This document shows, piece by piece, positions 2,096 to 63,487 of a stretch of 64,000 nucleotides of DNA (positions are counted from its first letter, which is position 1; every line of letters starts with the position of its first letter). Under the pieces are notes generated by a model. That model was not told where the DNA came from. It saw only the letters and a list, made by a program, of their open reading frames with translations, and made no database searches. The translations under genes and the position numbers were made by a program. The stretch spans positions 35,439 through 99,438 of the forward strand of contig BEHN01000005.1 in the NCBI GenBank assembly GCA_002898535.1, given 5' to 3'. Source of the stretch: a bacterium HR11 (GTDB lineage: Bacteria > Acidobacteriota > HRBIN11).

Positions 2096-2182
2096 CTTAG
2101 CAGAGCCGTTCGGTCGGGAGAAATGCGGTTCCCATCCGGGAAAAACGGTGGCCCGGCGATCTCGATTGTTCAAGCTTGTTAA

Positions 2183-2355
2183 GGATGACACCGCCATGAC
2201 GGGCGGTGTTCAGAGGGGATGACACCGCCATCCCTGGCGGTGTTCGGAGCGGATGACACCGCCATGGCTGGCGGTGTTCAGATGGGATTGACACCGCCAT
2301 CTCTGGCGGTGTTCGGAGGGGATTGACATGGCCATGACGGGCGGTGCATGAGGAG
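2183..2355 (+). repeat. tandem array of five 34-35 bp hairpin units (GGATGACACCGCC-ATGACG-GGCGGTGTTCAGAGG)
   Basis: GAT phase markers at 2184, 2218, 2252, 2286 and 2321. Each unit is an 8-bp inverted repeat ACACCGCC/GGCGGTGT with a variable 6-nt loop. There are no spacers. Confidence 0.85.
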
Positions 2356-2435
2356 GACGCCCGCAGGACGGCGGGCTCTCTACGAAAGGCACCGGCATGA
2401 CGGCCGGTGGGCCGGGGATCGACGCCCGTCTCTCG

Positions 2436-2560
2436 ACCTGCCCATCTGCCGACCTGCCCATCTGCCCACCTGCCCACCTGCCAAATGCCCATCGCCCGAC
2501 CGGCCGACCTGCCCACCTGCCCATCTGCCCACCTGCCCACCTGCCCAACTGCCGAATGCC
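2436..2560 (+). repeat. tandem octamer array CTGCCCAY (about 15 units)
   Basis: Direct reading: ctgcccat ctgccgac ctgcccat ctgcccac ctgcccac ... The same octamer arrays recur at 5391-5449, 7105-7235, 10417-10475, 10860-10950, 22462-22500, 23205-23270, 56798-56830 and 63150-63180. Confidence 0.85.
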
Positions 2561-2837
2561 TGAGACATCGTGCCTTCGTGGAGGCGCCCTTTCCGCTTCC
2601 CATCGCACTTCTCACCTCCCGGACGGCTCTGTTAGGGATGTTCTCATGGGGTTTGCCTTTCGGGCAGGTGTGTGGTAGATTAGGCCTATCCACGCGTCGT
2701 CGGGCACGGGCCATGGTGCCCTGGGAGGGCCGGATGAGGGGAAGGAGGACTTCTCCGACGGGGAGGGGCGTGGTTTCTCCGCAAAGTCGTCGGATTCGGC
2801 CCTGCCTGGACTGATTCCTCAGACGCAGGGACTCCTT

Positions 2838-7027: not shown

Positions 7028-7449
7028 CACAGCCGTTCGGTTCGTGAGAATGGCGTCAGAACAATCTTTTCTATCCCCCGGAAAGCGCGATGTTTCAAGC
7101 ATTCGGCGGGTGGGCAGTCGGCCGACGGGCAGGTGGGCAGGTCGGCAGATGGGCAGGTGGCAAATGGGCAGGTGGGCAGATGGGCAGTCGGCAGGTCGGC
7201 AGATGGGCATTTGGCAGGTGGGCAGGTCGAGAGACGGGCGTCGATCCCCGGCACACCGGCCGTCATGCCGGTGGCTTCCGTAGAGAGCCCGCCGTCATGG
7301 GGGCGTCATCTTCGTGAACCGCCCGTCCTGGCCGGGTCGATCCCCTCCGAACACCGCCCGTCATGGCGGTGTCATCCTTAGCAAATCGAGATCGCCGGGC
7401 CACCGTTTTCCCGGATGGGAACCGCATTTCTCCCAACCGAACGGCTCTG
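7028..7449 (-). mobile_element. A-type composite element, copy A2 (inverted, 422 bp; one hairpin unit, long octamer array)
   Basis: Termini CACAGCCGTTCGG (7028-7040) and CCGAACGGCTCTG (7437-7449). The L-module at 7375-7449 is the reverse complement of 2101-2190. Confidence 0.65.
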
Positions 7450-7453
7450 ATAA

Positions 7454-7796
7454 CAGAGCCGTTCGGCCCGTGAGAATGGCGTCGGAACAACCTTTCCCAT
7501 CGCCCGGGGAGCCCGATGTTTCAAAGGAACGGAGGGATGGACCATAGACCCCAGACCATAGACCGGCTTGGGCCCAGGGGACCATGGTCTATGGTCCATG
7601 GTCCGTGGTCTGGGGTCCGATATCGAGGGTCCGATCCCGGTCTCGTCGGATTTATGAGACTGGTTCGATGGAAGGATAATCCCGACCGGCCCGTCGGCCC
7701 AAGACCGTGGCTCGTCCCTCCGTCCCTTCAAAAACCGCCGCCCCGAAGGGTCGGAAAAGCCGATCCGTTCGGGATTCTCACGGACCAAAGGCTCTG
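7454..7796 (+). mobile_element. B-type MITE-like element, copy B1 (343 bp)
   Basis: Left terminus CAGAGCCGTTCGG (7454-7466), right terminus ...CAAAGGCTCTG (to 7796). ~75-nt end modules flank a GACCAYR heptamer hairpin and a conserved GATATCGAGGGTCCGATCCCGGTCTCGTCGGATTTATGAGAC module. Collinear with the reverse complement of 47442-47768. Confidence 0.75.
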
Positions 7797-9376: not shown

Positions 9377-9455
9377 ACCCCGCTCTTGCGAGCGGGGCTT
9401 GGAGTTCATTCCGCATTCCTGTCCTGCATCCTGCATCTTGTAGCCTGGCATCCTG
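9377..9455 (+). repeat. E-type composite repeat: REP-like hairpin plus CCTGCAT heptamer array
   Basis: ACCCCGCTCTTGCGAGCGGGGC, then ATTCCGCATTCCTGTCCTGCATCCTGCATCTTG. Same architecture at 37002-37128 and 37865-38046, and inverted at 20880-20960. Confidence 0.7.
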
Positions 9456-10413: not shown

Positions 10414-10528
10414 GGCAGATGGGCAGGTCGGCAGATAGGCCGTCGGCAGATGGGCCGTCGGCAAGTGGGCAGGCAGGGGAGGGATACCCGTGCGGGTGGC
10501 TCCCTTGACCCGGGTAATAGTTCGTTAT

Positions 10529-10955
10529 CAGAGCTGTTCGGTTGGGAGAAATGCGGCTCCTATCCGGGAAAACGGTGGCCCGGCGACCTCGATTTTTCAA
10601 GCTTGTGAAGGATGACACCACCATGACTGGCGGTGTTCAAAGGGAATGACACCGCCATGGCTGGCGGTGTTCGGAGGGAATGACACCGCCATGACTGGCG
10701 GTGTTCAGAGGGGATGACACCGCCATGACTGGCGGTGTTCAGAGGGGATCGACCCGGCCAGGACGGGCGGTGCATGAGGAGGACGCCCGCAGGACGGCGG
10801 GCTCTCTACAGAAGCCACCGGCAGGACGGCCGGTGTCCCGAGGATCAACGCCCGTCACCCGACCTGCCCATCTGCCGACCTGCCGACTGCCCACCTGCCC
10901 ACCTCCCCATCTGCCAACTGCCTATCTGCCCACCTGCCGACCTACCCACCTGCCC
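10529..10955 (+). mobile_element. A-type composite element, copy A3 (right terminus missing, abuts rlmI start)
   Basis: CAGAGCTGTTCGG at 10529-10541, then L-module, 4+1 hairpin units, middle and octamer array, collinear with A1. No right inverted repeat before ATG 10968. Confidence 0.6.
10610..10780 (+). repeat. tandem array of four 34-bp hairpin units plus one degenerate unit
   Basis: Phase markers at 10611, 10645, 10679, 10713 and 10747. Same unit as 2183-2355. Confidence 0.85.
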
Positions 10956-12155: not shown

Positions 12156-12386
12156 GTATCGGGGATTCGGGAATTCGGGAGCTCGGGAGTTCGGCAATAA
12201 GGCAGTTCGGGAATTCGGCCCTTCGGGAGGGCCGTTCGACGGCCGACGTAGAAAACAAGGGGGGCATCCATCGTTCCCGGATGGCCGCAGCCCCGCTCTA
12301 ACGAGCGGGGCTGGGATGAAGACGGTCGGCCGGCCCCCCAATGCCCGAGTTCCCGAACTCCCGGATTGCCGAATTCCTGAATGGCC

Positions 12387-13196
12387 CTATTTATGGCTTT
12401 GGGCGTGGAGGCGTTCGTAGAAGGCGACCGTAGCGGCGACGGCCACGTTGAGGCTGTCCATCGGGGCCCGCATGGGGACGTGGGCCCCGGGCAGGGACGA
12501 GAGGACCTCCGGGAGGGGGGCCGTCTCGCCCCCGAAGACGAGCACGCCCCGGGGCGGCCATCGGAGATTCCAGAGGGGACGGGGCCGGCTGGGATGGACG
12601 ACGATCAGGGGCATCCGGTCCTGCTGATACCATCGGATCAGATGGCTCGGCGCAACGTCCGTCCAGAAGGGGACCCGCAGGCAGGCGCTCATGCTGGCCC
12701 GGGTGGCCTTCGGGTTGTACGGGGAGACGGAGCCCGGCGACAGCAGGAGACCCCGAATCCCGGCGCCCAGGGCCGTCCGGAAGATCGTCCCCAGGTTACC
12801 GGGGTCCCGGATTTGATAGAAGTACGCATAGTAGCCCTCTGCCGGGGGCGGCCACGACCGCTCCGGTGGACGAGACCAGAGGGCTAAGAGGCCAGGCGGC
12901 GTCTCGACGGTCGAAAGACGCGCCATTTGCTCTCGGGTGCACACATAGACGGGCACCTTCCGATGCCGCTTCAGGGCGGCCTGGACGCCCTTCCATTCGG
13001 GACTCGCCAAGCGGGACCGCTCGACGACGACCCCGACGGGCGGGTCATCGACGTATTCCAGGGCCTCCCGGACGGACCGGAAGCCCTCCAGGACCATCGT
13101 GTGGGTCGCCTCGGTCCGCCGGAGGAGCCGCTCGTAGCGTCGGAGGACATCTTCCGTCAGAGACGGCCACTCCTTCGCCATCGCCGTCATCGACAT
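12387..13196 (-). CDS. TrmH/SpoU family RNA 2'-O-methyltransferase
   Basis: IRDPGNLGTIFRTA, LVFGGE and MDSLNVAVAATVAFYE SpoU motifs. The first 5 codons of ORF 12387..13211 are heptamer repeat, so start is placed at the next ATG (13196; alternatives 13190, 13181). Confidence 0.8.
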   Translation of the reverse strand: MSMTAMAKEWPSLTEDVLRRYERLLRRTEATHTMVLEGFRSVREALEYVDDPPVGVVVERSRLASPEWKGVQAALKRHRKVPVYVCTREQMARLSTVETPPGLLALWSRPPERSWPPPAEGYYAYFYQIRDPGNLGTIFRTALGAGIRGLLLSPGSVSPYNPKATRASMSACLRVPFWTDVAPSHLIRWYQQDRMPLIVVHPSRPRPLWNLRWPPRGVLVFGGETAPLPEVLSSLPGAHVPMRAPMDSLNVAVAATVAFYERLHAQSHK

Positions 13197-13367
13197 CCGA
13201 CCATAGACCATGGACCATAGACCCCTGGGCCCCAGCCGGTCTATGGTCTGGGGTCCATGGTCTATGGTCCATGGTCGGATTTATGAGCCCACCTCTTTGA
13301 AAAATCGTGCTTCCCGGGCGTTGGGAAGGGTTGTCCCGACGCCATTCTCACGAACCGAACGGTTCTG
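13197..13367 (-). repeat. partial B-type element (heptamer hairpin plus one end module)
   Basis: GACCATAGACCATGGACCATAGACC..CCGGTCTATGGTCTGGGGTCC hairpin and end module ...GACGCCATTCTCACGAACCGAACGGTTCTG (13355-13367). Confidence 0.65.
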
Positions 13368-20823: not shown

Positions 20824-20831
20824 CAACCGAC

Positions 20832-20879
20832 GGGGCCGCTCCCGATGAGGGAACGGCCCCTACCTATTTCTTTCTTTTT
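20832..20879 (+). terminator. intrinsic-terminator-like hairpin after sufB
   Basis: GGGGCCG (20832-20838) ... CGGCCCC (20854-20860), followed by the T-rich TACCTATTTCTTTCTTTTT. Confidence 0.45.
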
Positions 20880-21158
20880 AATGATGCAAGATGCAGACTA
20901 CAGGATGCAAGATGCAGGATCGACCGAGGCCTGGAGGGCCTGCCTCCATAGATTCCATCCTGCATATCGAGTCTTTGGTGTGAAGGACGGGGGGGGGGTC
21001 TGGGTTTGAGTCCTACCGAACGCCCGACCCCAAGACCGAGTCCCCACAGTTCGACCGAACCAAGCCGTAGCGCATCGTTCAGTCGGGACCTATGGACACA
21101 GGCCATGCGAGTTTCGGCCGATCCTGTATCCCGCACGTCCGATAAGGGAAGGCATGGA

Positions 21159-22457: not shown

Positions 22458-22540
22458 TTGAGCAGTCAGGCAATAAGGCAGGTCGGCAGATAGGGCGCAT
22501 GGGCCTCCGGCCTGCCGACAGGCGAGGCGGTGCGGATGTA

Positions 22541-22644
22541 GTAGGGATGCGATGGGGATGCGATGGGGATGCGATCGCATCACTACGCATCACTACGCAT
22601 CACTACGCATCTCTATGCATCCCTATGCGTCTCTATGCATCATC
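22541..22644. repeat. long imperfect hairpin made of tandem 11-mers (GGGGATGCGAT x3) facing tandem 10-mers (GCATCACTAC x3 plus variants)
   Basis: Direct reading. The symmetry centre is GCGATCGC at 22571-22578. Confidence 0.8.
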
Positions 22645-22805
22645 AGATGGGCTGAAAAGCCGAGTTCATCGGGATGCTCACGGACCCAACGGTCCTGTTA
22701 CCTACGCCGGTCCATCGGCCGACCCGCCTCATGACCTTACTACCGTATCGTCTTCGTGCTACAATATCCGACCGATGGTGGAATCCCCCTCAGCCGGTGG
22801 CGGCT

Positions 22806-23201: not shown

Positions 23202-23392
23202 CAGAGCCGTTCGGCAGGTCAGCAGATGGGCAGGTCGGGAGATAGGCAGTCGGCAGATGGGCAGACGAGGAGATGGGAAACCATTCGCCATTCGCTATTC
23301 GCCGTTCGATGTTCACCTTTGATTCGGGCAGGGGGAAAGGTCGTCCTGAAGCTGTTCCTCACGAATCAAACGGCTCTGGTAGGAGAGGCCCT

Positions 23393-36889: not shown

Positions 36890-37001
36890 GCCACGCCATC
36901 GGGTCCCGGAAGGGAAACCACGGCCCCCGGCCCTGAGTCCAGAGGACCGCCGGGTCCCGTCGAGCGGTGGGGCCATCCCCCATGACCGTAGAGGGATGAG
37001 A

Positions 37002-37128
37002 CGCGACCCCGCTCTTGCGAGCAGGCCTGGGATAAAGGGCCTCGGGCGAGCGGGACCTGAGACCGGATTCCGCATTCCCGCCTTGCATCCTGCATCCTGC
37101 ATCCTGCATTCTGTATCCTACATCCTCC
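37002..37128 (+). repeat. E-type composite repeat (REP-like hairpin, spacer, CCTGCAT x ~6)
   Basis: CGCGACCCCGCTCTTGCGAGC... then CCTTGCATCCTGCATCCTGCATCCTGCATTCTGTATCC (37081-37128). Confidence 0.7.
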
Positions 37129-37141
37129 CTCGGGGGTCCTC

Positions 37142-37660
37142 ATGACCATCCGATGGCTGGTGCTGGACGTGGACGGCGTCCTGACGGACGGGCGTCTGTA
37201 CTACGGCGACGACGGGCAGGTCCTGCGCGCCTTCCACATCCGGGACGGGTCGGCCATCGTCCTGGCCCCTCAGGCGGGCCTCTCCATCGCCGTCGTCTCC
37301 GGCCGGGCCGACCCGGCCGTCCGTCGGCGCATGCAGGAGCTCGGCGTCCGGGAGGTCCATCTGGGCGTGACCCACAAAGAAGCCGTCCTGCGGGACATCG
37401 CGGCCCGCCACGGGGTCTCGCTCGCCGAGATGGCCTTCATGGGCGACGACGTGCAGGACTTGCCGGCCTTTGCGGTCGTCGGCTACCGGATGACCGTCCC
37501 GGACGCCCCGGCCGAAATTCGAGACCTCGCCGATTGGGTGGCGCCCGTCCCCGGCGGGCAGGGCGCCGTCCGAGCCGCCATCGAGCACCTGTTGGAACGC
37601 CGGGGCATCCGGCTGGCCGACGTAGCCCGACAGGCGCTTCAGATGGGGAGCGGCGAGTAG
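37142..37660 (+). CDS. kdsC: KDO-8-phosphate phosphatase (HAD family)
   Basis: LVLDVDGVLTDGRLYY, SGR and FMGDDVQDL HAD motifs. 172 aa. Confidence 0.85.
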   Translation: MTIRWLVLDVDGVLTDGRLYYGDDGQVLRAFHIRDGSAIVLAPQAGLSIAVVSGRADPAVRRRMQELGVREVHLGVTHKEAVLRDIAARHGVSLAEMAFMGDDVQDLPAFAVVGYRMTVPDAPAEIRDLADWVAPVPGGQGAVRAAIEHLLERRGIRLADVARQALQMGSGE

Positions 37661-37864
37661 CGAACGGCGAATGGCGAGTGGCGGGTGGCGAACGGCCAAG
37701 GGTCCATGGCCCGCATCTCACGGCTTCGCTTCGGCGAGCGGGGCGGGGATAAAGGGCATAGACCCCGGAACCCCTTAACCTGCATCTTGACCCCTGGGAC
37801 CTCGGACCCCAGGCCTGTCCTGCATCGACCTGTCCGATGGCCGAATCCCGGATTGCCGTACGGC

Positions 37865-38046
37865 CGCGACCCCGCTCTCACGAGCGGGGCTGGGATGAAA
37901 AGGCTCATCGGCCGACCGGCCTCCCTGCCGAACTCCCAAAGGCCGAAGGACGCCGGACCTCTCGCCCGGGCCCCGAGACTTAGTGCCCCATTCCCGGCTT
38001 GCATCCTGCATCTTGCATCGTGCATTCTTCTTGTATCCTGCTCCAC
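37865..38046 (+). repeat. E-type composite repeat (REP-like hairpin, spacer, CTTGCAT/CCTGCAT array)
   Basis: CGCGACCCCGCTCTCACGAGCGGGGCTGGGATGAA ... CATTCCCGGCTTGCATCCTGCATCTTGCATCGTGCATTC. Same orientation as 37002-37128. Confidence 0.7.
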
Positions 38047-39340: not shown

Positions 39341-39720
39341 GCGCCGTTCGGCCTTCGAGGTCGGGTAGGCGGACGGTCTGCACCGGGTCCCTGGCCGCCG
39401 GCCACTCGACCGACTCCCGGTACGCCTTAACAGAGCCGTTGCGTTCGTGAGAATCCAGATAGATTCGGCTTTTCCGACGACCCGGGAAGCACGGTTTTTC
39501 AAACAAAGCGACGGAGTGATGGAGTGACGAAGTAAAATTTGGACCGCTCGACCCAGCAGCCAGCTATTTTCTGAACTCCGTCACTTGCTTGAAAAACCGT
39601 CATTCTCGATGGGTCCAAAAAGCCGATCCAATCAGCGTCTTCACGGGTGCCACCGCCCTGTTAAGACTCGGCAGGCCATCCGCGACGCCGGGGACGACTT
39701 CCCGGCGCCCCAGGGAGACG

Positions 39721-41080: not shown

Positions 41081-41364
41081 GTCCATAGAACTCATGTGAC
41101 TGTTTTAAAGTCGGCGGGTGAACGGGCCGGAAAAGCCCATCCCAGGTTCCTGGACTCCGACCGAGGGTTGGAGTCCAGGAAAAACTGCGCCAGTCCCGCC
41201 TACTCGACCGATTACCCACCAAAAGTGAAACAGTCACGAACCCATCTCAAAAACTTCTCCCTGGGGAAAAAGACCCAGATGGAAAAGGTCGACCCGACAC
41301 CCTTCTCCCGGGCGCAACCGCTCTGCTGTTCGTCGTCGCGGTGCAGACGGGGACGTCTGGGCTC

Positions 41365-47441: not shown

Positions 47442-47768
47442 GGGAGCCGTTCGGTCCGTGAGAATCCCGGTGGGATCGGCTTTTCCGACCCTTCGGGGAG
47501 ACGATTTTTTGAAGGAACGGAGTAACGAAGTGACCAGCAACGGTCTTGGGCCGATGGGCCGGTCGGGATCATCCTTCCATCGAACCAGTCTCATAAATCC
47601 GACGAGACCGGGATCGGACCCTCGATATCGGCCCCCAGACCACGGACCATGGACCCCTGGGCCCAAGCCGGTCTATGGTCCATCCCTCCGTCCCTTTGAA
47701 ACATCGTGCTTCCCGGGGGTGCTGGAAAGGGCCGTTGGGACGCCCTTCTCACGAACCGGACGGCTCTG
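47442..47768 (-). mobile_element. B-type MITE-like element, copy B2 (327 bp, inverted relative to B1)
   Basis: Termini GGGAGCCGTTCGG (47442-47454) and CCGGACGGCTCTG (47756-47768). The reverse complement aligns end to end with 7454-7796. Confidence 0.75.
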
Positions 47769-53125: not shown

Positions 53126-55474
53126 ATGATGTTCCCCAGGCGGTTCTGGCTGATCACCATGGGACTGACCGGTGTCGTCCTGGCCTACGGGTGCGCCGCC
53201 GCTCGTTACATGGGGCGGGCCGAGAAGGCCGCCCGGGCGGGCGACTGGGACCGGGCGCTCCAGCACTGCTTCGAAGCCCTCCGGCGGGACCCCGATAACA
53301 TCAAGTATCAGGCGACCTGCCGTCGGATGCGTCTGGCGGCCGCCGAATTCCACTTTCAGCGGGCCGAGGCCCTCGTCGAGAAGAATCCCGACGACATCCC
53401 GACCCTGGAACAGGCCATCCTGGAGTACCAACTGGCCGTCCAGTCGGACCCGACCCATCAGTTGGCCGCCGCCCGTCTGGAGGCGGCGATCCTGAAGCTT
53501 CAACGCCTGAAGGAACAGCGGGCCGAGGCGGCTATGGAGATCGAGCGGGCCAAGGAGAAGATCGCCCGGGCCGCCGTCTTACCCAAGATCTTGCACAGCG
53601 AGGAACTGATCGACATCAAGTACGTCGACACGAGCCTCCGGCAGATCCTGGACTCGATGGGCAAGAGCTTTGGCCTCAATGTCCTCTACGACAAAGACTT
53701 TCAGGATACTCGATACAGCGTCGAACTCCACGGCGTCACCTTCCAGGAGGCCCTCCAACAGATCCTGGCCGCCAACGGCCTGTTCTACAAGATCGTCAGC
53801 GAAAACACCATCATGGTCATCCCCGACAATCCCCAGAAGCGCCGCCAGCACGAAGAGTTGGTCGTCCGGACGTTCTATCTATCGAACGCCGACCTGAACG
53901 AGACGGTCAACCTTCTGCGGGTCATCGCCGGCATCCAACAGATCGTCCCCAATACCCAGCTTTACGCCATCACCGTCAAGGACACGCCCGAGAAGGTCGC
54001 CCTGGCCGAACGGATCATCCGTCTCAACGACAAGGCCCGGGCGGAAGTCATCCTGGACGTCGAGATCCTGGAGGTCAGTCGTCAAACGGCGGCCCGCTAT
54101 GGGATCGACATCGTCCCCGAGATCGCCGTCACGCAGACGCTGGACATCGGCCAGGGACCGGGTGTCATCTTCGGCCATCAGTTCCGGGCCATCGACGCGG
54201 CCGCCTGGGCCTTTACTTTCCCGTCGATCGTCTATCGGGCCCTCGTCACGGACGCCAGCACCCGCGTCTTGGCCCGGCCGCAGGTCCGGGCCGCCGACGG
54301 CCAGGCCATGACCGTCCGCTTAGGCAACCGAGTCCCCATCCCGACGACGACCTTCACGGGCATCACGCCTCAGCCGGGCCAGCCCCCGCCGACCGGGGGC
54401 GTCATCGTCCCCATCACGAGCTTTCAGCTCGTGGACGTCGGGATCAATATCGACGTCAAGCCCCGGATTCACCACAACCGGGAAGTCACGCTGGACTTAA
54501 AGTTTGAGCTGACATCCATCGCCGCCCCGGGCCGTCAGATCAATGAACCGCCGACCTTAGGGAGTCGGGTCGTCAACACGACCATCCGATTAAAGGACGG
54601 GGAGACGAATCTCCTGGCGGGTCTTCTTCGGCAGGACGAGCGCCGGGCCTTGCGGGGTCTGCCCGGGATTCAGAATCTTCCCTTCCTACGAGACCTGTTC
54701 GCCGCCAACGAACGGAGCATCGAGCAGACGGACGTCGTCTTCACGATCACGCCCCACATCATCCGCATGCCGGCTATCACCGAGGAAGACCTGAAGCCTC
54801 TCTGGGTCGGGACGGCCGACCAGCCCCGTCTCCGGGAGCCCCCGCCGTACACGGTCTTCCAACCGCCGCCGGAGACGAAACCGCCTGGGGAAAAGCCGCC
54901 CGAGAAGCCACCTTCGCCGCCTTCTGAAAAGCCCCCCGGGACATCTCCGGCCCAGCCGTCTCCACCGACGTCTTCCGAGAAGCCCCCAGAGGTGTCGCCG
55001 ACGAAGCCGTCTGAAACGCCTTCACCGGGGCCTGCAGGTCCGACGACCCCGGTCCAGCCCGTCCAAGCCGTCGGCTTCCTGTGGAGCAGTCAGGTCCCCG
55101 AACCCGGTCGGGTGCAACTTCGCATGTGGGTGACCGGTGTGCCGAAGGACCGGCCCGTGGAGGTCATCGTCGAATCGACCCCACCGGCGACGGGCTCGGT
55201 CACGGTCGAGCCCCCGCCGGGCGGCGGCGCCCCGGACCTTATGGACTGGCGGTGGAACACGCAAGACCGACAGGTATCGGTCCAATTTCGGGTCCGCCCC
55301 GGTGTCCCCCCGAATCAGTCGATCCCCATCGGGCAGGTCGAGTGGCGCATGCCGCCGGACCTGACGTCTATCCACATCCGGGTGCGGATCGTCGAAGTCG
55401 GTCGGCCCGTTGAGCCCCTACTGGAGAAGGAGTACACTGTCTCGATCCCAAAACCCCCGGAGACCCGGCCCTGA
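53126..55474 (+). CDS. lipoprotein secretin (PilQ/GspD family) with TPR-like N-terminus and Pro-rich C-terminal extension
   Basis: Lipobox LAYGC. Secretin core ...VLARPQVRAADGQAMTVRLG...RLKDGETNLLAGLL...LRGLPGIQNLPFLRDLF...TDVVFTITPHIIR. A ~70-aa P/S/E/K linker and a ~150-aa extra domain follow. Confidence 0.85.
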   Translation: MMFPRRFWLITMGLTGVVLAYGCAAARYMGRAEKAARAGDWDRALQHCFEALRRDPDNIKYQATCRRMRLAAAEFHFQRAEALVEKNPDDIPTLEQAILEYQLAVQSDPTHQLAAARLEAAILKLQRLKEQRAEAAMEIERAKEKIARAAVLPKILHSEELIDIKYVDTSLRQILDSMGKSFGLNVLYDKDFQDTRYSVELHGVTFQEALQQILAANGLFYKIVSENTIMVIPDNPQKRRQHEELVVRTFYLSNADLNETVNLLRVIAGIQQIVPNTQLYAITVKDTPEKVALAERIIRLNDKARAEVILDVEILEVSRQTAARYGIDIVPEIAVTQTLDIGQGPGVIFGHQFRAIDAAAWAFTFPSIVYRALVTDASTRVLARPQVRAADGQAMTVRLGNRVPIPTTTFTGITPQPGQPPPTGGVIVPITSFQLVDVGINIDVKPRIHHNREVTLDLKFELTSIAAPGRQINEPPTLGSRVVNTTIRLKDGETNLLAGLLRQDERRALRGLPGIQNLPFLRDLFAANERSIEQTDVVFTITPHIIRMPAITEEDLKPLWVGTADQPRLREPPPYTVFQPPPETKPPGEKPPEKPPSPPSEKPPGTSPAQPSPPTSSEKPPEVSPTKPSETPSPGPAGPTTPVQPVQAVGFLWSSQVPEPGRVQLRMWVTGVPKDRPVEVIVESTPPATGSVTVEPPPGGGAPDLMDWRWNTQDRQVSVQFRVRPGVPPNQSIPIGQVEWRMPPDLTSIHIRVRIVEVGRPVEPLLEKEYTVSIPKPPETRP

Positions 55475-55523
55475 GGCGAGCCGCCGGACCGGTTCAGGCA
55501 CGGGCCGAGGTCATTCGGATTAC

Positions 55524-55775
55524 GTGTTGACGCCTCACGCTAAATTTCAGATGCGGCGCCGGGGCCTTCGTCCGGCCCTCGTCCGACGGGTCCTGACGGT
55601 ACCGGAGCAGGTCATCGAACTCCGGCCGGGTCGCGCGGTGTTTCAGTCTCGGGTGCGGTCGGGGGGCCGGGTCTACCTCGTGCGGGTGGTCGTGGACGTC
55701 GACCGCCGTCCGGCGGAGGTCGTCACGGTCTACCGCACGAGCAAGGTGGCCAAATACTGGAAGGAGTCGTCATGA
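55524..55775 (+). CDS. DUF4258-like putative toxin
   Basis: (V)LTPHAKFQMRRRGLRPALVRRVL...VVVDVDRRPAEVVTVYRT fits the DUF4258 pattern (xHAxxRMxxRGI...VITVY). GTG 55524. ATGA overlap with the next gene. Confidence 0.6.
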   Translation: MLTPHAKFQMRRRGLRPALVRRVLTVPEQVIELRPGRAVFQSRVRSGGRVYLVRVVVDVDRRPAEVVTVYRTSKVAKYWKESS

Positions 55776-56002
55776 AGGTCATCTACGACCCCAGGACCGA
55801 CACGCTCAGCGTGATTTTCCGGGAGGACCGGCCGGTCGCCGAGAGCGATGAGGACAAGCCGGGCGTGATCCTCGACTACGACGAGCAGGGGAACCTGGTC
55901 TCGCTGGAGATCCTGGACGCATCGAAGCGGGTGACTGACGTGTCCCACGTTCAGTTCCAGACGGTCGGGGAGTCGGCGGTGCCCAGCTCTTCGGCCCGTT
56001 GA
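55772..56002 (+). CDS. DUF2283-like putative antitoxin
   Basis: MKVIYDPRTDTLSVIFRE...GVILDYDEQGNLVSLEILDASKR is the classic DUF2283 pattern (YDxEADxLYI...DxDxxGxxVGIEIL). Confidence 0.65.
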   Translation: MKVIYDPRTDTLSVIFREDRPVAESDEDKPGVILDYDEQGNLVSLEILDASKRVTDVSHVQFQTVGESAVPSSSAR

Positions 56003-56063
56003 ACCCCTGCTGGAAAAGGCATACACTGTCTCGATCCCGAAGCCCCCGGAGACCCGGCCATGA
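55991..56063 (+). pseudogene. relic duplicate of the secretin 3' end (last 23 codons plus stop)
   Basis: 73-nt direct repeat of 55402-55474 with 65/73 identical. In the secretin frame it reads RPVEPLLEKAYTVSIPKPPETRP*, versus ...EKEYTV... in the live copy. Confidence 0.75.
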
Positions 56064-56080
56064 ATCGGTGTCGTCCTTAG

Positions 56081-56305
56081 CAGAGCCGTTCGGTTCGTGA
56101 AAACCCGCATGGATTCGGCCTGATTGGCTCATGGCTCATAGCTGATGGCTCACGGGACTATGAGCCATGAGCTATGAGCTATGAGACCATGCGGCTATGA
56201 ACCATACATCGCCCTGGCTTGTCACTCCGCCCCTTTGAAACATCGGGCTTCCCGGGCGTTGGGAAAGTTTGTTCCGACGCCATTCTCACGAACCGAACGG
56301 CTTTG
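56081..56305 (+). mobile_element. C-type MITE-like element: shared termini around a GGCTCAT/ATGAGCY heptamer hairpin
   Basis: CAGAGCCGTTCGG (56081-56093) ... CCGAACGGCTTTG (56293-56305). Arms at 56126-56153 and 56158-56205. The right end module equals the B-type end module. Confidence 0.7.
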
Positions 56306-56628
56306 AACTCGTCTCAAAAGTCCCTGATCTCAGTGAGAGAGAAGCTCTGGATCAAGGCCCTCACCCTACCCTCTCCCCCAGGGAGAGGGTTTTGAGATGA
56401 GTTGGCTCTGTTGCCATCCTGGAGCCATCGTCTCAAAAGTGGCCTCGGCGGGCCTGCCCCCCTACCGGAGCCGGTTCACCCGGTCCCAGCGCCCGGCCCT
56501 CCGGCTGGGGCGGGCCTACGACAGCGACCGCCTGAAATTTTTGGGCTCTCTTCGGCGGGCCCAGGGCCTCCGGGCCTCTCCAGAAGCCTGAAGAGGATAT
56601 CAACAGAGCCAGATGAGTTCTTTGTTAA

Positions 56629-56904
56629 CAGAGCCGTCCGGTTGGGAGAAATGCAGTTCCCATCCGGGAAAGCGGTAGCCCGGCGATCTCGATTTTTTAA
56701 GCTTATTAAGGATGACACCGCCATGACGGGCGGCGCCAAGACCGGGGGCCACCGGCATGACGGCCGGTGTTCCGGGGATAGACGCCAGTCTCCCGACCTG
56801 CCCATCTGCCCACCTGCCCAACTGCCGAATGCTTGAAGCATCGTGCTTTCGTGGAGGTGCCCTTTCCGCTTGCCATCGCACTTCTCACCTCCCGAACGGC
56901 TCTG
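56629..56904 (+). mobile_element. A-type composite element, copy A4 (short form: 1 hairpin unit, 3 octamers)
   Basis: CAGAGCCGTCCGG (56629-56641) ... CCGAACGGCTCTG (56892-56904). L-module, middle and tail are collinear with A1. Confidence 0.7.
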
Positions 56905-56933
56905 TTAAACTTCTATAGATTTGGAGGTCGGGG

Positions 56934-58241
56934 ATGCGACGAACGGGTACTGGACTTCGATGTGGAACTGGATTCATGGTGGCCCTGTTGGTGGGCATGG
57001 CCGCTGGGTCGTACGCTCAAGTCCGGACGGGCAATAGCTCGGAAGGCGACAGCGGCATCTTTCACGTGATATCCAGCCAGACGGTCTCGAAGGGTCGCCT
57101 CTGGTTTGGGGTCGCCCACGACAACCTGGACCGAGACCCCTTAGATGCGGATGAGAGCCATTATCGAGTGGGCCTCGGCTTCGGCATCACCGATTGGCTT
57201 CAGGTCCAGGCCGCCTGGGACGTCCTGACCCAGTACGACGTCGACCCCAAGGGTGGGGCGACAGGCTTCTTCAATACGCAGTTCATCTCCCGGAATACCT
57301 GGTTCAGCGGCCTCGGCGACCTGTGGGCGGGCCTGAAGCTTCGGGTCCTGGACGTTCGTCAACAGCCCGTCGGCCTCGGCGTCCTGGCCCGGGTCAAGAT
57401 CCCGGCGGCCTCGGCCTCAGACGGCGTCGGGACCGGAAAGGTCGACCTGGACGTGCGGGGCCTGCTGGAGTTCAACGTCCAGGACACGGTCGGCCTGTTT
57501 GGGAATGCCGGCTTTCTGCTGGCCGGGAAGCCGGAGGCCCATCGGGTCGGCAATCAGTTCGTGTACGGGGCCGGCTTGGCCGTGCCGTATAAGACCCGGC
57601 TTCAGCTCGTGGCCGAGGTCTCGGGCGGCGTCGTCCAGTCCGGCGGCCAGATTGACGACTATACGGACCTGGGCGTCGGCCTCCGGTGGTTCATCACTGA
57701 CAATTGGAACGTCACGGCGGCCTATCGTCGGAATGTTCAAGCGGGGAGTGACCTGAGTCAGCATCCCGACGGCGGGACCGTCGTCTTGGGCTATTGGCCT
57801 CAGCCGAAGGTAGCGGCTCCACCTCCACCGCCACCCCCGCCGCCCCCGCCGCCTGCGCCGCCACCCCCGCCCCCGCCCGTCGTGGTACCCCCGGCGCCGG
57901 CCCTGGCGGAGGTTTACTTTGATTTCGACCGTTACGAAATCCGGCCCACGGAGGTCGAGAAGCTGGACAAGTTGGCTCAGTACCTGAAGGACCACCCGGA
58001 CGTGAACATCGTCGTCGAGGGCCACACGTGTTATATCGGGACGGATGAATACAACATGGCCCTGGGGTTCCATCGGGCCGAGGCCGTCAAGGAGTACTTG
58101 GTCTCGAAGGGCATCGACGCCGCCCGCATCGAGACCGTCAGCTACGGGGAGACCCAGCCCAAGTACGACAACGCCCAGGAGATCACCCGTCGCTTCAATC
58201 GGCGGGCCTGGTTCGTGATCCGGGAAAAGCCCAAGCCCTGA
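56934..58241 (+). CDS. OmpA-family outer-membrane protein (beta-barrel, poly-Pro linker, OmpA_C domain)
   Basis: Signal peptide ...GMAAGSYAQ. Linker APPPPPPPPPPPPAPPPPPPPVVVPPAP. OmpA_C ...FDFDRYEIRP...VVEGHTCYIGTDEYNMALGFHRAEAV...NRRAWF. Confidence 0.85.
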   Translation: MRRTGTGLRCGTGFMVALLVGMAAGSYAQVRTGNSSEGDSGIFHVISSQTVSKGRLWFGVAHDNLDRDPLDADESHYRVGLGFGITDWLQVQAAWDVLTQYDVDPKGGATGFFNTQFISRNTWFSGLGDLWAGLKLRVLDVRQQPVGLGVLARVKIPAASASDGVGTGKVDLDVRGLLEFNVQDTVGLFGNAGFLLAGKPEAHRVGNQFVYGAGLAVPYKTRLQLVAEVSGGVVQSGGQIDDYTDLGVGLRWFITDNWNVTAAYRRNVQAGSDLSQHPDGGTVVLGYWPQPKVAAPPPPPPPPPPPPAPPPPPPPVVVPPAPALAEVYFDFDRYEIRPTEVEKLDKLAQYLKDHPDVNIVVEGHTCYIGTDEYNMALGFHRAEAVKEYLVSKGIDAARIETVSYGETQPKYDNAQEITRRFNRRAWFVIREKPKP

Positions 58242-58559
58242 CCCCTCCGCAGGTTCGGAAACTCGCCGCCGTTGGACGGACGGCGTTTCTAAGGGCCTCA
58301 ACAGGACTTTCTCCCTCGGGGAGGAGAGGGCAGGGTGAGGACCCCTACCCCCGACCTCTCTCCGGGAGGGGCTATTTTGTGCCGCATTCTGAGGGGCCGG
58401 TGACTCATGAGGCGGGGCTCCCGTCGGTAAGGTCGGACGGCCTGAGGAGGTGGAGAGGCCTATATTCCCTTGAAGAGGGACTTGCAGGGCAAAGGCCTCC
58501 GAACGGCCCTGTGAGCTCGCAGTTCCCGATCCTCCTGGGCTCCAGCCCCGTGAACGGAG

Positions 58560-61553: not shown

Positions 61554-61565
61554 CGAGTCGCGAAA

Positions 61566-61623
61566 GGCGAACGGCGAGTGGCCGACGGGGAATTGTACTT
61601 CCCCTGTTCGCCATTCGTTTTTC
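61566..61623 (+). terminator. terminator-like hairpin made of GCGAAYGG heptamer arms, followed by T5
   Basis: GGCGAACGGCGAGTGGCCGACGGGG ... CCCCTGTTCGCCATTCG TTTTT, directly after the helicase stop. Confidence 0.4.
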
Positions 61624-61665
61624 TCGAAGGACCGGGAAGGCCGAATTCGTCCAGATTCTTACGGG

Positions 61666-61800
61666 CCTGTTTTAAAACTCACCGCCGAGGCGCAGAGGAC
61701 GCAGAGGGAGGAATGAGGAATGAAGAATGAGGAATGAGGAGGGTTTTCTTCGATTTTTCCTCTGCCTTCTCGGCGTCTCAGCGGTGGAATGAAGATTTTG
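61666..61800 (+). repeat. D-type repeat, copy D1, carrying a GGAATGA heptamer array (61708-61743)
   Basis: Aligns with the reverse complement of 63296-63403, except that the heptamer array is absent there. The complementary array TCATTCC lies at 62013-62047. Confidence 0.7.
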
Positions 61801-62070
61801 AAATACGCTCTTATGAGCCGAACGGCTCTGGTAGGAGACCGCTTTTAGTACCGGTAGTGATCAATGCGAGACTGACGCCGCCATCCCGGCCGGCTCCTGA
61901 GGATGACGCCGCATGACTGCTGGCGTTGGGATGGAATGGACGCCGCCATGACGGGCGGCGCCGGGGCAGGGGAACGCCGGGATGACGCCCGGCGTTCCGA
62001 GACCATTAACCTTCCCCATTCCCCATTCCTCATTCCTCATTCCTCAATCTCGCATCCCGTACCCACGGAG

Positions 62071-62517
62071 TCACGCTTCGACCCGGCAGGGGAAAGGCAC
62101 GAACTGGCCCGTCTCGTCCAGCCGCCAGGCGGTCCACTCCTCGACGCCCCGGGCCGTGACCCGCAGGACGATGTAGACAAAGTCCGGCCACGCCCGCTGG
62201 CGGTCCGTCTCCGACGGCCGGGCCGGATGGTCGGGATGCGAGTGATAGACGGCTAAGATGCGAAGGCCCCGCTCGTCGGCCGACCGCTCGACCCGTCGGT
62301 ACGTCAAGGGGTCGATCACGTAGCGGTCGTGCCGTCGGGTCGGCTCGACGTTCGGGGTCCGGTAGATCTCGACGACTCGCCCGTCAGGGTAACCGACGAG
62401 GAGACCGCAAGCCTCGTAAGGGTAGTCCTCGGCCGCATGGGCCTCCATCGTCTCGACCAGGGAGCGGGGAATCTGCAGAGTGTCGAAACTCAGGGAACGC
62501 ACCTCCAGGACCGCCAT
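62071..62517 (-). CDS. JAMM/MPN+ metalloprotease (Mov34/Mec+ family)
   Basis: E..ACGLLVG and YHSHPDHPARPSETD (HxHx7Sx2D JAMM motif). 148 aa. Confidence 0.8.
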   Translation of the reverse strand: MAVLEVRSLSFDTLQIPRSLVETMEAHAAEDYPYEACGLLVGYPDGRVVEIYRTPNVEPTRRHDRYVIDPLTYRRVERSADERGLRILAVYHSHPDHPARPSETDRQRAWPDFVYIVLRVTARGVEEWTAWRLDETGQFVPFPCRVEA

Positions 62518-62578
62518 CGGAAACTCCTATGATCCGGTCGTCCGGTATTCGGTGTCCGGCGTTGAGAGGACCGAACGC

Positions 62579-63136: not shown

Positions 63137-63295
63137 GCTCGTCCCTGGCCAGCAGGTGGGCAGTTCGGCAAATGGGCAGACGGTGAGTTCGCGGAGCCGT
63201 TCGGTTCGTGAAAACGGTGTCAGGATGGCCTTGCCCATTGCCCGGGAAGCACGATTTTTCAAGCATCCGGCCGATGGGGAAATGAGAGCGTATTT

Positions 63296-63403
63296 CAAAA
63301 ACTCTATTCCACCGCTGAGCCGCCGAGAACGCAGAGGAAAAATCGAAGAAAAAACCCTCGTCCTCTGCGGCCTCTGCGCCTCGGCGGTGAGTTTTGAAAC
63401 AGG
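63296..63403 (-). repeat. D-type repeat, copy D2 (no heptamer array)
   Basis: The reverse complement CCTGTTTCAAAACTCACCGCCGAGGCGCAGAGG...CTCAGCGGTGGAATAGAG matches D1. Confidence 0.7.
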
Positions 63404-63487
63404 CTCGGAGCCCTGGATGGGCCAGGGGCGCCCCCGGGCCTTTTGGGCCCTCGGCCGAATTGCCGAACTCCTGAATTACCTTATGGG

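What the first reader, a model, noticed from the sequence alone, without database searches (positions are those of the whole stretch)
56081..56305. Same element termini, different tandem k-mers: hairpin arms built from unrelated 7-11-mer words
Seen: conserved end modules (CAGAGCCGTTCGGTYCGTGAGAAT...CGATGTTTCAAAGG and its inverse) enclose arms built from different words. The words include GGCTCAT/ATGAGCY (56126-56205), GACCAYR (B-type), GGGGATGCGAT versus GCATCACTAC (22541-22644) and GGAATGA/TCATTCC (61708-61743 versus 62013-62047). Others are CCTGCAT (9418-9455, 20880-20960, 37081-37128, 37998-38046), GCGAAYGG (9200-9235, 23280-23310, 37660-37700, 61566-61617) and GGGAATTCGG (12160-12215 versus 12340-12380). 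In most cases a forward array faces its approximate reverse complement. Established: heptamer STRR arrays are known from heterocystous cyanobacteria and REP/BIME from proteobacteria. Inference: here the two properties are combined, with word-variable but symmetry-preserving tandem arrays inside a shared MITE frame. I have not seen this described.
Basis: partly seen in the sequence, partly recalled or inferred. Interest (0 to 1): 0.65.

Follow-up and report, generated by a model that had tools for sequence, protein, structure and literature searches.

The report
Hairpin transposon relics with variable repeat cores
The 225-base feature is one copy of an abundant miniature transposon of an uncultured hot-spring bacterium; its hairpin core is built from short tandem words that differ between copies, but such word arrays fill this lineage's gene spacers in general, so it is a new variant of known repeat types, not a new class.

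Summary
Window 56081-56305 is a 225-bp element with 23-nt terminal inverted repeats (TIRs, CAGAGCCGTTCGGTTCGTGARAA). It has an intact 'A' end module, a truncated 'B' end module and a central hairpin with arms GGCTCAT x4 / ATGAGCY x4.4.

- The window holds 22 end modules.
- Six of 15 complete copies carry perfect 4-bp target duplications at NTAR sites.
- Copy number is roughly 100-200 per genome.
- The element is absent from the orthologous spacer of a relative that is about 88-90% identical.

A related genome assembled from a metagenome (a MAG, labelled Acidobacteriota) has the same frame with other words (GGGTGYT, CGTGACGW, GGGATRC). It also has a 110-bp copy with no core.

- The window has 40 short-period arrays, against 3 expected by chance.
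- Only about half of the intergenic arrays have an inverted partner.
- Only 17 of 37 lie in a TIR frame.
- The longest arrays are one-sided.

The arrays are a general feature of this lineage's spacers. They abut stop and start codons, G-rich version first and C-rich version second. That rule, and inverted pairs, are already published for Xanthomonas and Nostoc heptamers.

Verdict: a new variant of known kinds, of moderate interest.

The parts
56081..56305 (.). Focal MITE copy (225 bp): truncated B-type end, heptamer hairpin core, A-type end
   Evidence: MFE -120.8, z about -10.6. Unitigs of the source sample cover the core at single-copy depth.
56081..56103 (+). Left terminal inverted repeat CAGAGCCGTTCGGTTCGTGAAAA
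   Evidence: 0 mismatches to the pattern, I13.
56283..56305 (-). Right terminal inverted repeat (CAAAGCCGTTCGGTTCGTGAGAA on the minus strand)
   Evidence: 1 mismatch, I13.
56081..56120 (+). B-type end module, truncated after GGATTCGGCC. Most other copies continue TTTTCCGACCCTTCGGGG...
   Evidence: nhmmer matches model positions 1-41 only. Loose-end consensus at 56119/56121 in four runs.
56124..56152 (+). Left hairpin arm, GGCTCAT-type units x4
56160..56191 (+). Right hairpin arm, ATGAGCY units x4.4
56192..56221 (+). Degenerate outer units (ATGAACC, ...) and the inner module GGCGGAGTGACAAGCC (minus strand), which is shared with other copies
   Evidence: compare 47442 and L009.
56222..56305 (-). 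A-type end module with its internal TTTCCC..GGGAAG stem-loop
   Evidence: nhmmer E=3.7e-21. Pair counts with C-G to U-A double changes in 5 of 16 copies.
56306..56403 (.). Second, unrelated small MITE (TIR about GAACTCRTCTCAAAAG) abutting the focal element. Also found nested in a MAG copy (L004).
   Evidence: Depth 100-400 against 5-9 for single-copy sequence.
2101..2631 (.). C/D-type family member: C end, 34-nt hairpin units x4.8, one-sided ACCTGCCC x15, D end. Target duplication TTAG.
7028..7449 (.). C/D-type member in the opposite orientation, GGCAGGTG x16. Target duplication ATAA.
7454..7796 (.). A/B-type member with a GACCATR / GGTCYAT hairpin core
   Evidence: z -8.0.
10529..10955 (.). 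One-ended C-type copy: 34-mers x4.7 and ACCTGCCC x12, running up to a gene start. A complementary GGCAGATG array lies outside it at 10414-10463.
   Evidence: (I3).
13190..13367 (.). One-ended A-type copy with a GACCATR hairpin
   Evidence: E=6.7e-22.
22544..22697 (.). GGGGATGCGAT x2.9 and GCATCACTAC x6.7 arrays, followed by one degenerate B-type end (22650-22697)
   Evidence: E=1e-4.
23202..23378 (.). 177-bp member in the nifU-Rieske spacer: TIR fused to a GGCAGNTS array, then a CCATTCG array, then an A-like end. Target duplication GTAG. The same layout occurs in MAG locus L005.
39431..39661 (.). Diverged A/B-type member with GACGGAGT-type 8-mers. Target duplication TTAA.
   Evidence: I1; z -4.9.
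41251..41325 (-). Degenerate solo end module
   Evidence: E=5e-8.
47442..47768 (.). A/B-type member with a GACCAYG hairpin. Flanks TCGA/TCAA.
   Evidence: z -7.1.
56629..56904 (.). C/D-type member: one 34-mer unit and CTGCCCAA x3.6. Target duplication TTAA.
61640..61830 (-). Member with the bare 13-nt TIR. It carries a GAGGAAT x4.7 array that its paralogue (63192-63410) lacks.
63192..63410 (+). Paralogue of the previous element, with a full A-like end and no heptamer array
62012..62046 (+). TTCCTCA x5 array, inverted partner of 61708-61740, lying outside that element's TIR
   Evidence: (I2).
12159..12382 (.). Frame-less hairpin between convergent genes: TTCGGGAA-type 8-mers, a central REP-like hairpin, then the CCCGAATT array

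Best explanation
The feature is one copy of a high-copy family of non-autonomous DNA transposons (MITEs). The host is an uncultured hot-spring bacterium whose nearest public relatives are MAGs labelled Acidobacteriota.

The family is defined by three things: a 13-23-nt terminal inverted repeat (TIR) CAGAGCCGTTCGG(TTCGTGAGAA); a 4-bp target duplication at NTAR-like sites; and 55-80-nt sub-terminal modules in at least four variants (A to D). A transposase supplied in trans (not found here) presumably binds the ends (inferred).

Between the ends sits a replaceable core.
- In A/B-type copies the whole element is a long imperfect palindrome. Its central hairpin arms are degenerate 7-8-nt tandem words.
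- In C/D-type copies the core is a one-sided 8-mer array plus 1-5 tandem 34-nt hairpin units.
- One copy has no core.

The tandem words are not made by or for the frame. The same kind of array fills this lineage's spacers in general, directly after stop codons and directly before start codons, G-rich version 5' and C-rich version 3'.

I infer that arrays arise and turn over by replication slippage. I also infer that arms are kept or made complementary at the DNA level, by fold-back or template-switch copying between inverted repeats, as in quasipalindrome correction. A point change in a unit can then spread through an array and be mirrored in the other arm, giving a 'new word' in the same frame. 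Sub-families with a given word then amplify by transposition.

Shown: TIR, target duplication, copy number, modularity, insertion polymorphism, and word differences with retained complementarity.
Inferred: slippage, arm mirroring, and the trans-acting transposase.
For: MITE status:
- 11 matches to the TIR pattern against 0 expected. nhmmer finds 22 end modules at E<1e-3.
- 6 of 15 complete copies have perfect 4-bp duplications (TTAG x2, ATAA, GTAG, TTAA x2). Most other flanks are also NTAR-like.
- No ORF or transposase lies in or near the elements.
- In the source sample, TIR-proximal words have depth about 1000-1130 against 5.5-9.5 for single-copy sequence.
- The orthologous secretin-OmpA spacer is 111 bp in L021 against 1446 bp here.

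Same frame, other words:
- MAG loci L001-L010 show this.
- The focal word occurs only here in the window. A 2-unit copy sits in an A/B frame in L006.
- The 110-bp core-less copy is in L008.
- A/B copies fold with z -5 to -14, while C/D copies and the 177-bp copy do not.

Arrays independent of the frame:
- 20 of 37 lie outside frames.
- About 70 kb from relatives (L021-L028) holds only a few degenerate ends, yet is full of arrays built from other words.

Placement rule: G-rich arrays sit in the left half of a spacer 16:1, and C-rich arrays sit left:right 6:10 (Fisher p=8e-4, Spearman rho -0.65).

Array gain inside a conserved frame: E9 against E10. A 'goes back' joint and an indel in the focal arms in the source run point to array-length variation.

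DNA-level rather than RNA-level symmetry: G.U-type and A.C-type arm mismatches number 45 and 44 on the sense strand.
Against: - No autonomous element with these TIRs was found, so mobilisation is inferred only from target duplications and polymorphism.
- 7 of 15 copies show no recognisable duplication.
- Slippage and template switching are inferred from pattern, not observed.
- The G-first/C-second placement rule and the way arrays abut coding sequences suggest some selection, which a purely neutral model does not explain.
- Only 64 kb of the source genome could be examined, so the proportions may differ genome-wide.
- The GACCATR hairpins break the G-first rule.
Confidence: 0.7

Rival explanations
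1. One reading: a distinct repeat class in which word-variable but symmetry-preserving tandem arrays are an intrinsic part of one MITE frame, the two properties being mechanistically linked.
For: The same A/B frame holds different paired words in the window and in the MAG. A/B copies have strong hairpin z-scores.
Against: 54% of arrays lie outside frames and about half are unpaired. C/D copies carry one-sided arrays. There is a core-less 110-bp copy. The pair at 61708/62012 straddles a TIR. Relatives with almost no end modules still have arrays and hairpins.
Confidence: 0.12
2. All arrays originate in MITE cores, and the 'orphan' arrays in spacers are relics of decayed or truncated elements whose ends have eroded.
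For: - A TIR-less partial copy keeps its core and inner module (1911-2062).
- One-ended copies exist at 10529, 13367 and 63192.
- The profile search uncovered degenerate ends beside arrays that had looked orphan (22650-22697, 61613-61667).
- The same words (GGCAGNTG, GGCGAAY) occur inside and outside frames.
Against: - L021 and L025-L027 have very few end modules but many arrays of lineage-specific words.
- Orphan arrays sit within a few bases of stop and start codons. Random decay of insertions would not produce that.
- Orthologous sufB-sufD spacers show related GATGCAR-like words evolving in place.
Confidence: 0.2
3. The hairpins are selected transcript elements that act like REP/BIME elements in enterobacteria. 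They would stabilise upstream mRNA, insulate or terminate transcripts, or loop out long spacers so that a stop codon and the next start codon stay close. The MITE would simply be a vehicle that spreads them.
For: - Arrays abut stop and start codons, and the placement rule holds whatever the gene orientation.
- Hairpins are kept in orthologous suf-operon spacers while their arm sequences differ.
- Convergent gene pairs share one large hairpin (12159-12382).
- End modules appear in contigs of a metatranscriptome at about 10 times the depth of the neighbouring OmpA gene, though DNA carry-over is not excluded.
- The same placement is reported for transcribed G-rich heptamers in Xanthomonas (PMC4692102).
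Against: - Arm mismatches show no sense-strand wobble bias (45 against 44).
- There is no T-run terminator signature or promoter above chance.
- There is no Rfam match.
- Spacers between close relatives turn over completely.
- A more distant relative (L028) runs the same operon with spacers of 3-32 nt (measured) and no hairpins between sufD and sufS.
Confidence: 0.2
4. Assembly artefact: repeat-rich spacers were mis-joined in a metagenome assembly.
For: The window comes from a metagenome-derived contig. Logan contigs of the same sample break at the repeat modules (L029 = 56882-61703).
Against: - Exact unitigs at single-copy depth link the B end to the GGCTCAT arm and span the hairpin (56090-56132, 56107-56172, 56143-56203).
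- The same architecture appears in an independent MAG from another country's hot spring.
Confidence: 0.03

Closest known systems
Bacterial MITEs (for example Correia/NEMIS of Neisseria and Nezha of cyanobacteria), especially 'BrickBuilt' of Porphyromonas gingivalis (PMC4596501)
   Same: Small and non-coding, with terminal inverted repeats, target duplication, intergenic position and many copies. BrickBuilt also has leader and tail modules around an internal tandem-repeat core of variable length.
   Different: - There is no sequence similarity.
- The core units here are 7-8 nt (or 34 nt), not 23 nt.
- In A/B copies the units form two complementary arms, and the word differs between copies.
- At least four end-module variants share one TIR.
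- No parent IS has been identified.
G-rich heptamer repeats GGGNATC / GGGGA(C/T)T of Xanthomonas and Nostoc (Rehm et al. 2015, PMC4692102)
   Same: - Heptamer arrays concentrated in non-coding DNA, typically about four units long.
- G-rich strand on the coding strand just after stop codons and on the non-coding strand just before start codons.
- 70-75 convergent inverted pairs per Xanthomonas genome.
- Extensive length and sequence variation between close relatives.
   Different: - One dominant word per genome there, against at least ten words (periods 7-11) here.
- The authors found no association with mobile elements, whereas here nearly half of the arrays lie in MITE frames.
- Only some words here have the G3 tracts needed for quadruplexes.
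STRR heptamer arrays of heterocystous cyanobacteria (Mazel et al. 1990; from my own knowledge)
   Same: Several different heptamer words, tandemly repeated in the intergenic DNA of one genome.
   Different: Different phylum. STRR arrays are not described as hairpin arms inside a TIR-bounded element.
REP/BIME of enterobacteria and REPINs of Pseudomonas (from my own knowledge)
   Same: Intergenic mosaics of short palindromic modules, often between convergent genes or inside operons. Probable mRNA-level side effects.
   Different: REP elements lack target duplications and are tied to RAYT (IS200-like) transposases and a conserved GTAG head. Here there are TIRs and 4-bp duplications, and no RAYT was seen in the window.
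BOX elements of Streptococcus pneumoniae (from my own knowledge)
   Same: Modular: conserved end modules (boxA, boxC) around a variable number of a central unit (boxB). This is like the C/D-type copies with 1-5 tandem 34-nt units.
   Different: The central unit is one fixed sequence, not a family of different words. There is no sequence similarity.

Membership tests
MITE (non-autonomous DNA transposon) | Terminal inverted repeats | tested here: met
   23-nt arms at 91% in the focal copy. The TIR is shared by 22 or more ends in the window.
MITE (non-autonomous DNA transposon) | Target-site duplication | tested here: met
   6 of 15 complete copies have perfect 4-bp duplications and 2 more match at 3 of 4 positions. 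Flanks are biased to NTAR. The focal copy itself has TTAG on the left, while its right flank is occupied by a second MITE.
MITE (non-autonomous DNA transposon) | Small, non-coding, multi-copy | tested here: met
   Copies are 110-531 bp with no ORF. Depth is about 1000 against 5-9 for single-copy sequence. The elements make up 3.67 kb of the 11.85 kb of intergenic DNA.
MITE (non-autonomous DNA transposon) | Presence/absence polymorphism at orthologous sites | tested here: met
   L021, L023 and L025-L027 lack the elements in the orthologous spacers. No exact empty site was recovered, because the whole spacers differ.
MITE (non-autonomous DNA transposon) | Autonomous partner IS with matching TIRs | not testable with these tools
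   There is no transposase in the window. Loci L001-L010 were checked only for TIR pairs spaced 1-3 kb apart, and their ORFs were not scanned against Pfam. The source genome beyond the window was not retrievable. An IS5-like YTAR 4-bp target is only a lead from memory.
G-rich heptamer SSR class of Rehm et al. 2015 | Over-representation in non-coding DNA, with the G-rich strand after stops and opposite strand before starts | tested here: met
   35 of 40 arrays are intergenic. G-rich arrays split left:right 16:1 and C-rich arrays 6:10 (p=8e-4).
G-rich heptamer SSR class of Rehm et al. 2015 | One consensus word (GGGNATC) with G3 tracts that allow a quadruplex | tested here: not met
   At least ten different words are present. 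Several, including the focal GGCTCAT, have only GG or no G-run.
REP/BIME - REPIN | Short palindromic unit without target duplication, linked to a RAYT transposase | tested here: not met
   Target duplications are present and there is no RAYT-like ORF in the window. A separate REP-like hairpin (GACCCCGCTC..GAGCGGGGC) does occur six times but is not the element in question.
STRR (cyanobacterial) | Tandem heptanucleotide arrays in the intergenic DNA of heterocystous cyanobacteria | tested here: not met
   Heptamer arrays are present, but the host's closest named relatives are labelled Acidobacteriota.
Known RNA families (Rfam 15) | Match at the gathering threshold | tested here: not met
   Only two tRNAs were found in the window.

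The most novel reading that the evidence does not exclude
The inverted word arrays might be produced by a dedicated, directional process and then kept under selection as structural modules of transcripts or of single-stranded DNA. The process could be, for example, fold-back synthesis coupled to transposition or to repair at stalled forks in a thermophile. This lineage would then have a system that continually rewrites its gene spacers into stop-to-start hairpins, with the MITE family as its vehicle.
Probability: 0.1. Interest if true: 0.7.

Novelty: new variant of a known kind. Interest (0 to 1): 0.4.

Why it matters
If the picture holds genome-wide, this uncultured thermophile devotes about a third of its intergenic DNA to one modular MITE family. 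It also rewrites its spacers completely between relatives whose genes are about 90% identical, while keeping them hairpin-shaped.

That makes it a natural system for three questions: how tandem-word arrays are born, how the two arms of a palindrome are kept in step, and how transposons pick up or shed internal cargo.

It also extends the placement rule for G-rich heptamers, previously seen in Xanthomonas and Nostoc, to a third, unrelated phylum and to many words at once. This suggests the rule reflects a general constraint around stop and start codons rather than a property of one motif.

On the practical side, such elements break short-read assemblies and could serve as strain markers in hot-spring metagenomes.

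Tried and rejected
- **TIR scan of metagenome contigs**: 9 hits, all chance matches in unrelated low-GC or coding DNA.
- **TIR scan of viral contigs**: no hits.
- **Rfam**: only tRNAs.
- **Promoter and terminator scan of 55400-57000**: nothing above chance.
- **Search for a parent transposase:** Pfam scans of 44 window ORFs found none. In loci L001-L010 I looked only for TIR pairs 1-3 kb apart, without success; their ORFs were not scanned.
- **Extending the source genome beyond the window**: only a 4.8-kb Logan contig came back, or no record.
- **Test for RNA-level selection through wobble bias in the arms**: 45 against 44, so no signal.
- **Small hairpins with a conserved ATGAC loop, as a separate structured motif**: 12 found against 6 expected (maximum 11), not clearly above chance outside the 34-mer units.
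- **Metatranscriptome run X7**: end modules are present, but the contigs are unstranded and DNA carry-over is possible, so transcription is not established.
- **First Python folding script**: timed out and was repeated with mononucleotide shuffles. The z-scores are therefore somewhat generous.
- **Host identity:** the GAL08 / Ca. Frugalibacteriales group (PMC8787282; GC 62.8%) is a candidate, but nothing here tests it.
Full report
**Setting.**
The window is 64 kb at about 66% G+C. It holds ordinary chromosomal genes: a suf operon whose SufB carries inteins, ComEC, RseP, Dxr, MacAB, a secretin, an OmpA-family protein and a helicase. No transposase was found. Near-identical sequence occurs in hot-spring metagenome runs. 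Logan contigs of one run match the window 100%. The closest named relatives are MAGs labelled Acidobacteria or Acidobacteriota. The source contig beyond the window could not be retrieved. All proportions below therefore refer to 64 kb plus about 190 kb of related loci.

**The observation.**
- At 56081-56305 there is a 225-bp element whose 23-nt ends are inverted copies of each other, 91% complementary.
- The end 23-mer occurs 11 times in the window at up to 3 mismatches, against none expected. The inner motif CGATGTTTCAAAGG occurs 4 times against 0.25 expected.
- Between the ends lie GGCTCAT x4.0 and, after a 7-nt loop, ATGAGCC x4.4. Each is the best reverse-complement match of the other.
- The element folds at -120.8 kcal/mol against -70.1+-4.8 for shuffles.
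- Exact unitigs of the source sample cover the junction of end module and arm, and the hairpin itself, at single-copy depth of 5.5-8.5. The core is therefore not an assembly artefact.

**What the element is.**
A profile built from 37 end modules of the window and a related MAG finds 22 ends in the window at E<1e-3. Three of these are degenerate copies that exact matching had missed. The ends share the first 13-23 nt and then fall into at least four sub-terminal variants:
- A: ...GTGAGAATGGCGTCGGAACAACCTTTCCCAACGCCCGGGAAGCACGATGTTTCAAAGG
- B: ...GTGAGAATCCCG..GGATCGGCTTTTCCGACCCTTCGGGG..GATTTTTTGAAGG
- C and D.

Of 15 copies with both ends, six are flanked by a perfect 4-bp direct duplication (TTAG twice, ATAA, GTAG, TTAA twice). 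Two more match at three of four positions, and nearly all flanks look like NTAR.

In the source sample, words next to the TIR have depth about 1000-1130 against 5.5-9.5 for single-copy sequence. That implies on the order of 100-200 near-identical copies per genome. In the window the family occupies 3.67 kb of the 11.85 kb of intergenic DNA.

A syntenic metagenome contig (L021) has genes 87-91% identical, with one at 80%. It has a 111-bp secretin-OmpA spacer where the window has 1446 bp. The extra DNA holds a DUF4258/DUF2283 gene pair, the focal element, a second small MITE and a C/D-type member.

Terminal inverted repeats, target duplication, small size, no coding capacity, high copy number and insertion polymorphism together meet the definition of a MITE. 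The one feature that could not be tested is the autonomous partner. A 4-bp duplication at YTAR-like sites recalls IS5-group transposases, but that comes from memory and is only a lead.

**Same frame, different words: confirmed and replicated.**
The focal copy is a B-end/core/A-end element whose B end is cut short after 40 nt. Most other copies in four metagenomes continue with TTTTCCGACCCTTCGGGG at that point (loose ends). Other A/B copies in the window carry GACCATR / GGTCYAT arms (7454-7796, 13190-13367, 47442-47768).

The only genome in the reference collection with the TIR is a Chinese hot-spring MAG. It has the same A and B ends around arms of GGGTGYT/AACACCC, CGTGACGW and GGGATRC. It also has a 110-bp copy that is just B end plus A end with no core. 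Loose-end consensus in other runs shows yet another common core word, CCCATCGG.

A/B copies fold as long hairpins (z -5 to -14). The A end contains a small stem-loop (TTTCCC...GGGAAG) in which five of 16 copies have changed C-G to U-A on both sides.

The window has 40 arrays of period 6-11 with at least 2.8 units, against 3.0+-1.2 in simulations. Thirty-five are intergenic (p=6e-21). I then worked with a curated set of 37 intergenic arrays. This set drops the three arrays I judged to lie in genes and adds two that the filter had missed.
- Only about 19 of the 37 (10 pairs) have a reverse-complement partner within 500 nt.
- Only 17 lie in an element with at least one end module.
- The longest arrays are the 8-mers GGCAGNTG x15-16 in C/D-type copies. 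They are one-sided and lie next to 1-5 tandem 34-nt hairpin units. C/D copies and the 177-bp copy at 23202 do not fold better than shuffles by much.
- The CCTGCAT arrays go with a different repeat, a REP-like hairpin GACCCCGCTC..GAGCGGGGC.
- The TTCGGGAA/CCCGAATT pair has no end modules.
- The GAGGAAT/TTCCTCA pair straddles a TIR. One arm is inside an element and the other 270 nt away outside it.
- The 11-mer and 10-mer arrays at 22544-22642 share only a 14-nt palindrome at their junction.

**The arrays are a property of the lineage's spacers.**
Contigs from four relatives (SufS 93-95% identical, genes 84-97% at the DNA level) align to the window across genes and stop aligning at almost every spacer. 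Their spacers contain other words: GGGGTYT, AACACCS, CAGACCR, GGAGATACGGGA and others. They hold very few end modules in about 70 kb. Yet most of these spacers in the three closest relatives still fold into hairpins whose arms sit next to the upstream stop and the downstream start, and the arms differ between genomes while staying complementary. A more distant relative (83% SufS) runs the same operon with spacers of 3-32 nt between sufD and sufS (coordinates; sequences, which include a few flanking coding bases).

Within the window, arrays that are G-rich on the plus strand sit in the left half of their spacer 16 times out of 17. C-rich ones sit in the right half 10 times out of 16 (Fisher p=8e-4; Spearman rho -0.65, p=1e-5). 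This amounts to 'G-rich on the sense strand just after a stop, C-rich on the sense strand just before a start', whatever the gene orientation.

Exactly this rule is published for GGGNATC-type heptamers in Xanthomonas and Nostoc. That paper also reports 70-75 convergent inverted pairs per genome and strong length and sequence variation between close relatives (PMC4692102). The GACCATR hairpins are the main exception to the rule here.

**How word change most likely works (inference).**
Three observations bear on this.
- Two paralogous elements, about 92% identical over 150 nt, differ by a clean insertion of a CTCATTC x4 array in one of them. The source run also shows a 'goes back' joint and an indel inside the focal arms. 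Arrays are therefore gained and resized in place, as expected from replication slippage.
- The focal word differs from the common GGTCYAT/GACCATR word by two substitutions per unit. Units that look intermediate (ATGAACC, GAGACCATG) sit at the outer end of the focal right arm. A two-unit GCTCATGGCTCAT occurs in an A/B frame in the MAG. Words therefore drift and are inherited within sub-families rather than invented per copy. The GGCGAAY+GGCAGNTS layout of the 177-bp element is likewise shared between the window and the MAG.
- Arm mismatches show no bias towards G.U on the sense strand (45 against 44 A.C). This is what DNA-level mirroring predicts (fold-back or template switching between inverted repeats, as in quasipalindrome correction). 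Selection on an RNA stem would predict a bias.

None of these steps was observed directly.

**Function.**
The simplest reading is selfish DNA plus a mutational process, filtered by selection around stop and start codons. One such filter could be against G-rich, Shine-Dalgarno-like runs upstream of starts, but that is my inference. A REP/BIME-like effect on transcripts is not excluded. Arrays abut coding sequences, hairpins persist in operon spacers, and end modules appear in a metatranscriptome assembly at about ten times the depth of the neighbouring gene (unstranded, and DNA is not excluded). Against it, no terminator or promoter signal exceeds chance, there is no Rfam match, and the sequences turn over completely between close relatives.

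**Comparison with known systems and novelty.**
- The element passes the membership tests for a MITE.
- It works like BrickBuilt of Porphyromonas (a MITE with a minisatellite core; PMC4596501) and like pneumococcal BOX elements (modular ends and a repeated centre; my own knowledge).
- Its arrays behave like the Xanthomonas/Nostoc heptamers and like cyanobacterial STRR. They fail the sequence and host features of those families.
- It fails the REP/REPIN features, because target duplications are present and no RAYT was seen.
- Three literature searches found no description of this family, nor of MITE frames whose hairpin arms are built of different tandem words. A hot-spring Acidobacteria genome paper (PMC8787282) has no mention of DNA repeats or transposable elements among the terms I searched.

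I therefore rate it a new variant of known kinds. It is a new MITE family, with a notable but explicable interaction between transposon hairpins and a lineage-wide array-forming process.

Noticed in passing
window 56306-56403; L004 about 600-700: A second, unrelated small MITE of about 98 bp (TIR GAACTCRTCTCAAAAG, with an internal CCCTCTCCCC..GGGAGAGGG hairpin). It abuts the focal element, with GGCTYTG repeated on both sides. The same element is nested in the loop of a MAG copy. Depth is 100-400 against 5-9 for single-copy sequence.
   Followed up: partly
window 9298-9331, 9375-9410, 12290-12320, 36995-37030, 37730-37760, 37870-37913: A REP-like hairpin GACCCCGCTCTnnCGAGCGGGGC(T)GGGAT recurs six times. 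Three copies are followed by ATTCCGCATTCC and a CCTGCAT array just upstream of a gene start. This looks like a separate composite repeat family.
   Followed up: partly
window 2183-2346, 10612-10772, 56730-56770, 61900-62000: Tandem 34-nt units (GGATGACACCGCCATGACGGGCGGTGTTCAGAGG). Each is a hairpin with a conserved ATGAC(G) loop and a variable, covarying stem (CACCGCC, CACCGGC, CGCCGCC, AACGCCGGG). A count of the loop motif alone was not clearly above chance (12 against 6).
   Followed up: partly
window 17185-20823 against L025, L026, L028: The intein content of SufB varies. The window's SufB is 1212 aa with two intein/LAGLIDADG regions, L025's is 1198 aa, L026's is 805 aa with one, and the 83%-identical relative L028 has 468 aa with none.
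   Followed up: no
window 20824-20865 and orthologues: A stem-loop directly after the sufB stop (GGGGCCGCTCCC..GGGAACGGCCCC) is kept in all five genomes with compensatory changes (GGGGCTACTCCC..GGGAGTGGCCCC in L027; GGGGGCACCCGG..CCGGGTGTCCCCC in L028). It is likely a conserved attenuator or terminator-type structure, distinct from the variable arrays.
   Followed up: partly
window 55552-56002: A DUF4258 + DUF2283 gene pair with overlapping stop and start (ATGA) sits between the secretin gene and the focal element. It resembles a toxin-antitoxin pair and is absent from the orthologous spacer of L021.
   Followed up: partly
window 62078-62526 against L021 13029-13471: The JAB-domain gene is inverted relative to L021. 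L023 has it in the window's orientation. In the window it lies next to the TTCCTCA array and the 61830 TIR.
   Followed up: no
window 57817-57878: A coding CCGCCGCCC (proline-rich) repeat in the OmpA-family gene shows in-frame length differences (+3 and -6 nt) in a related population in run X7.
   Followed up: no
window 22458-22805: The longest ORF call for NifU (22674) over-extends. Orthologues start at about 22806, so the sufD-nifU spacer is about 348 nt here against 117-137 nt in close relatives. The extra DNA consists of arrays plus a degenerate end module.
   Followed up: partly
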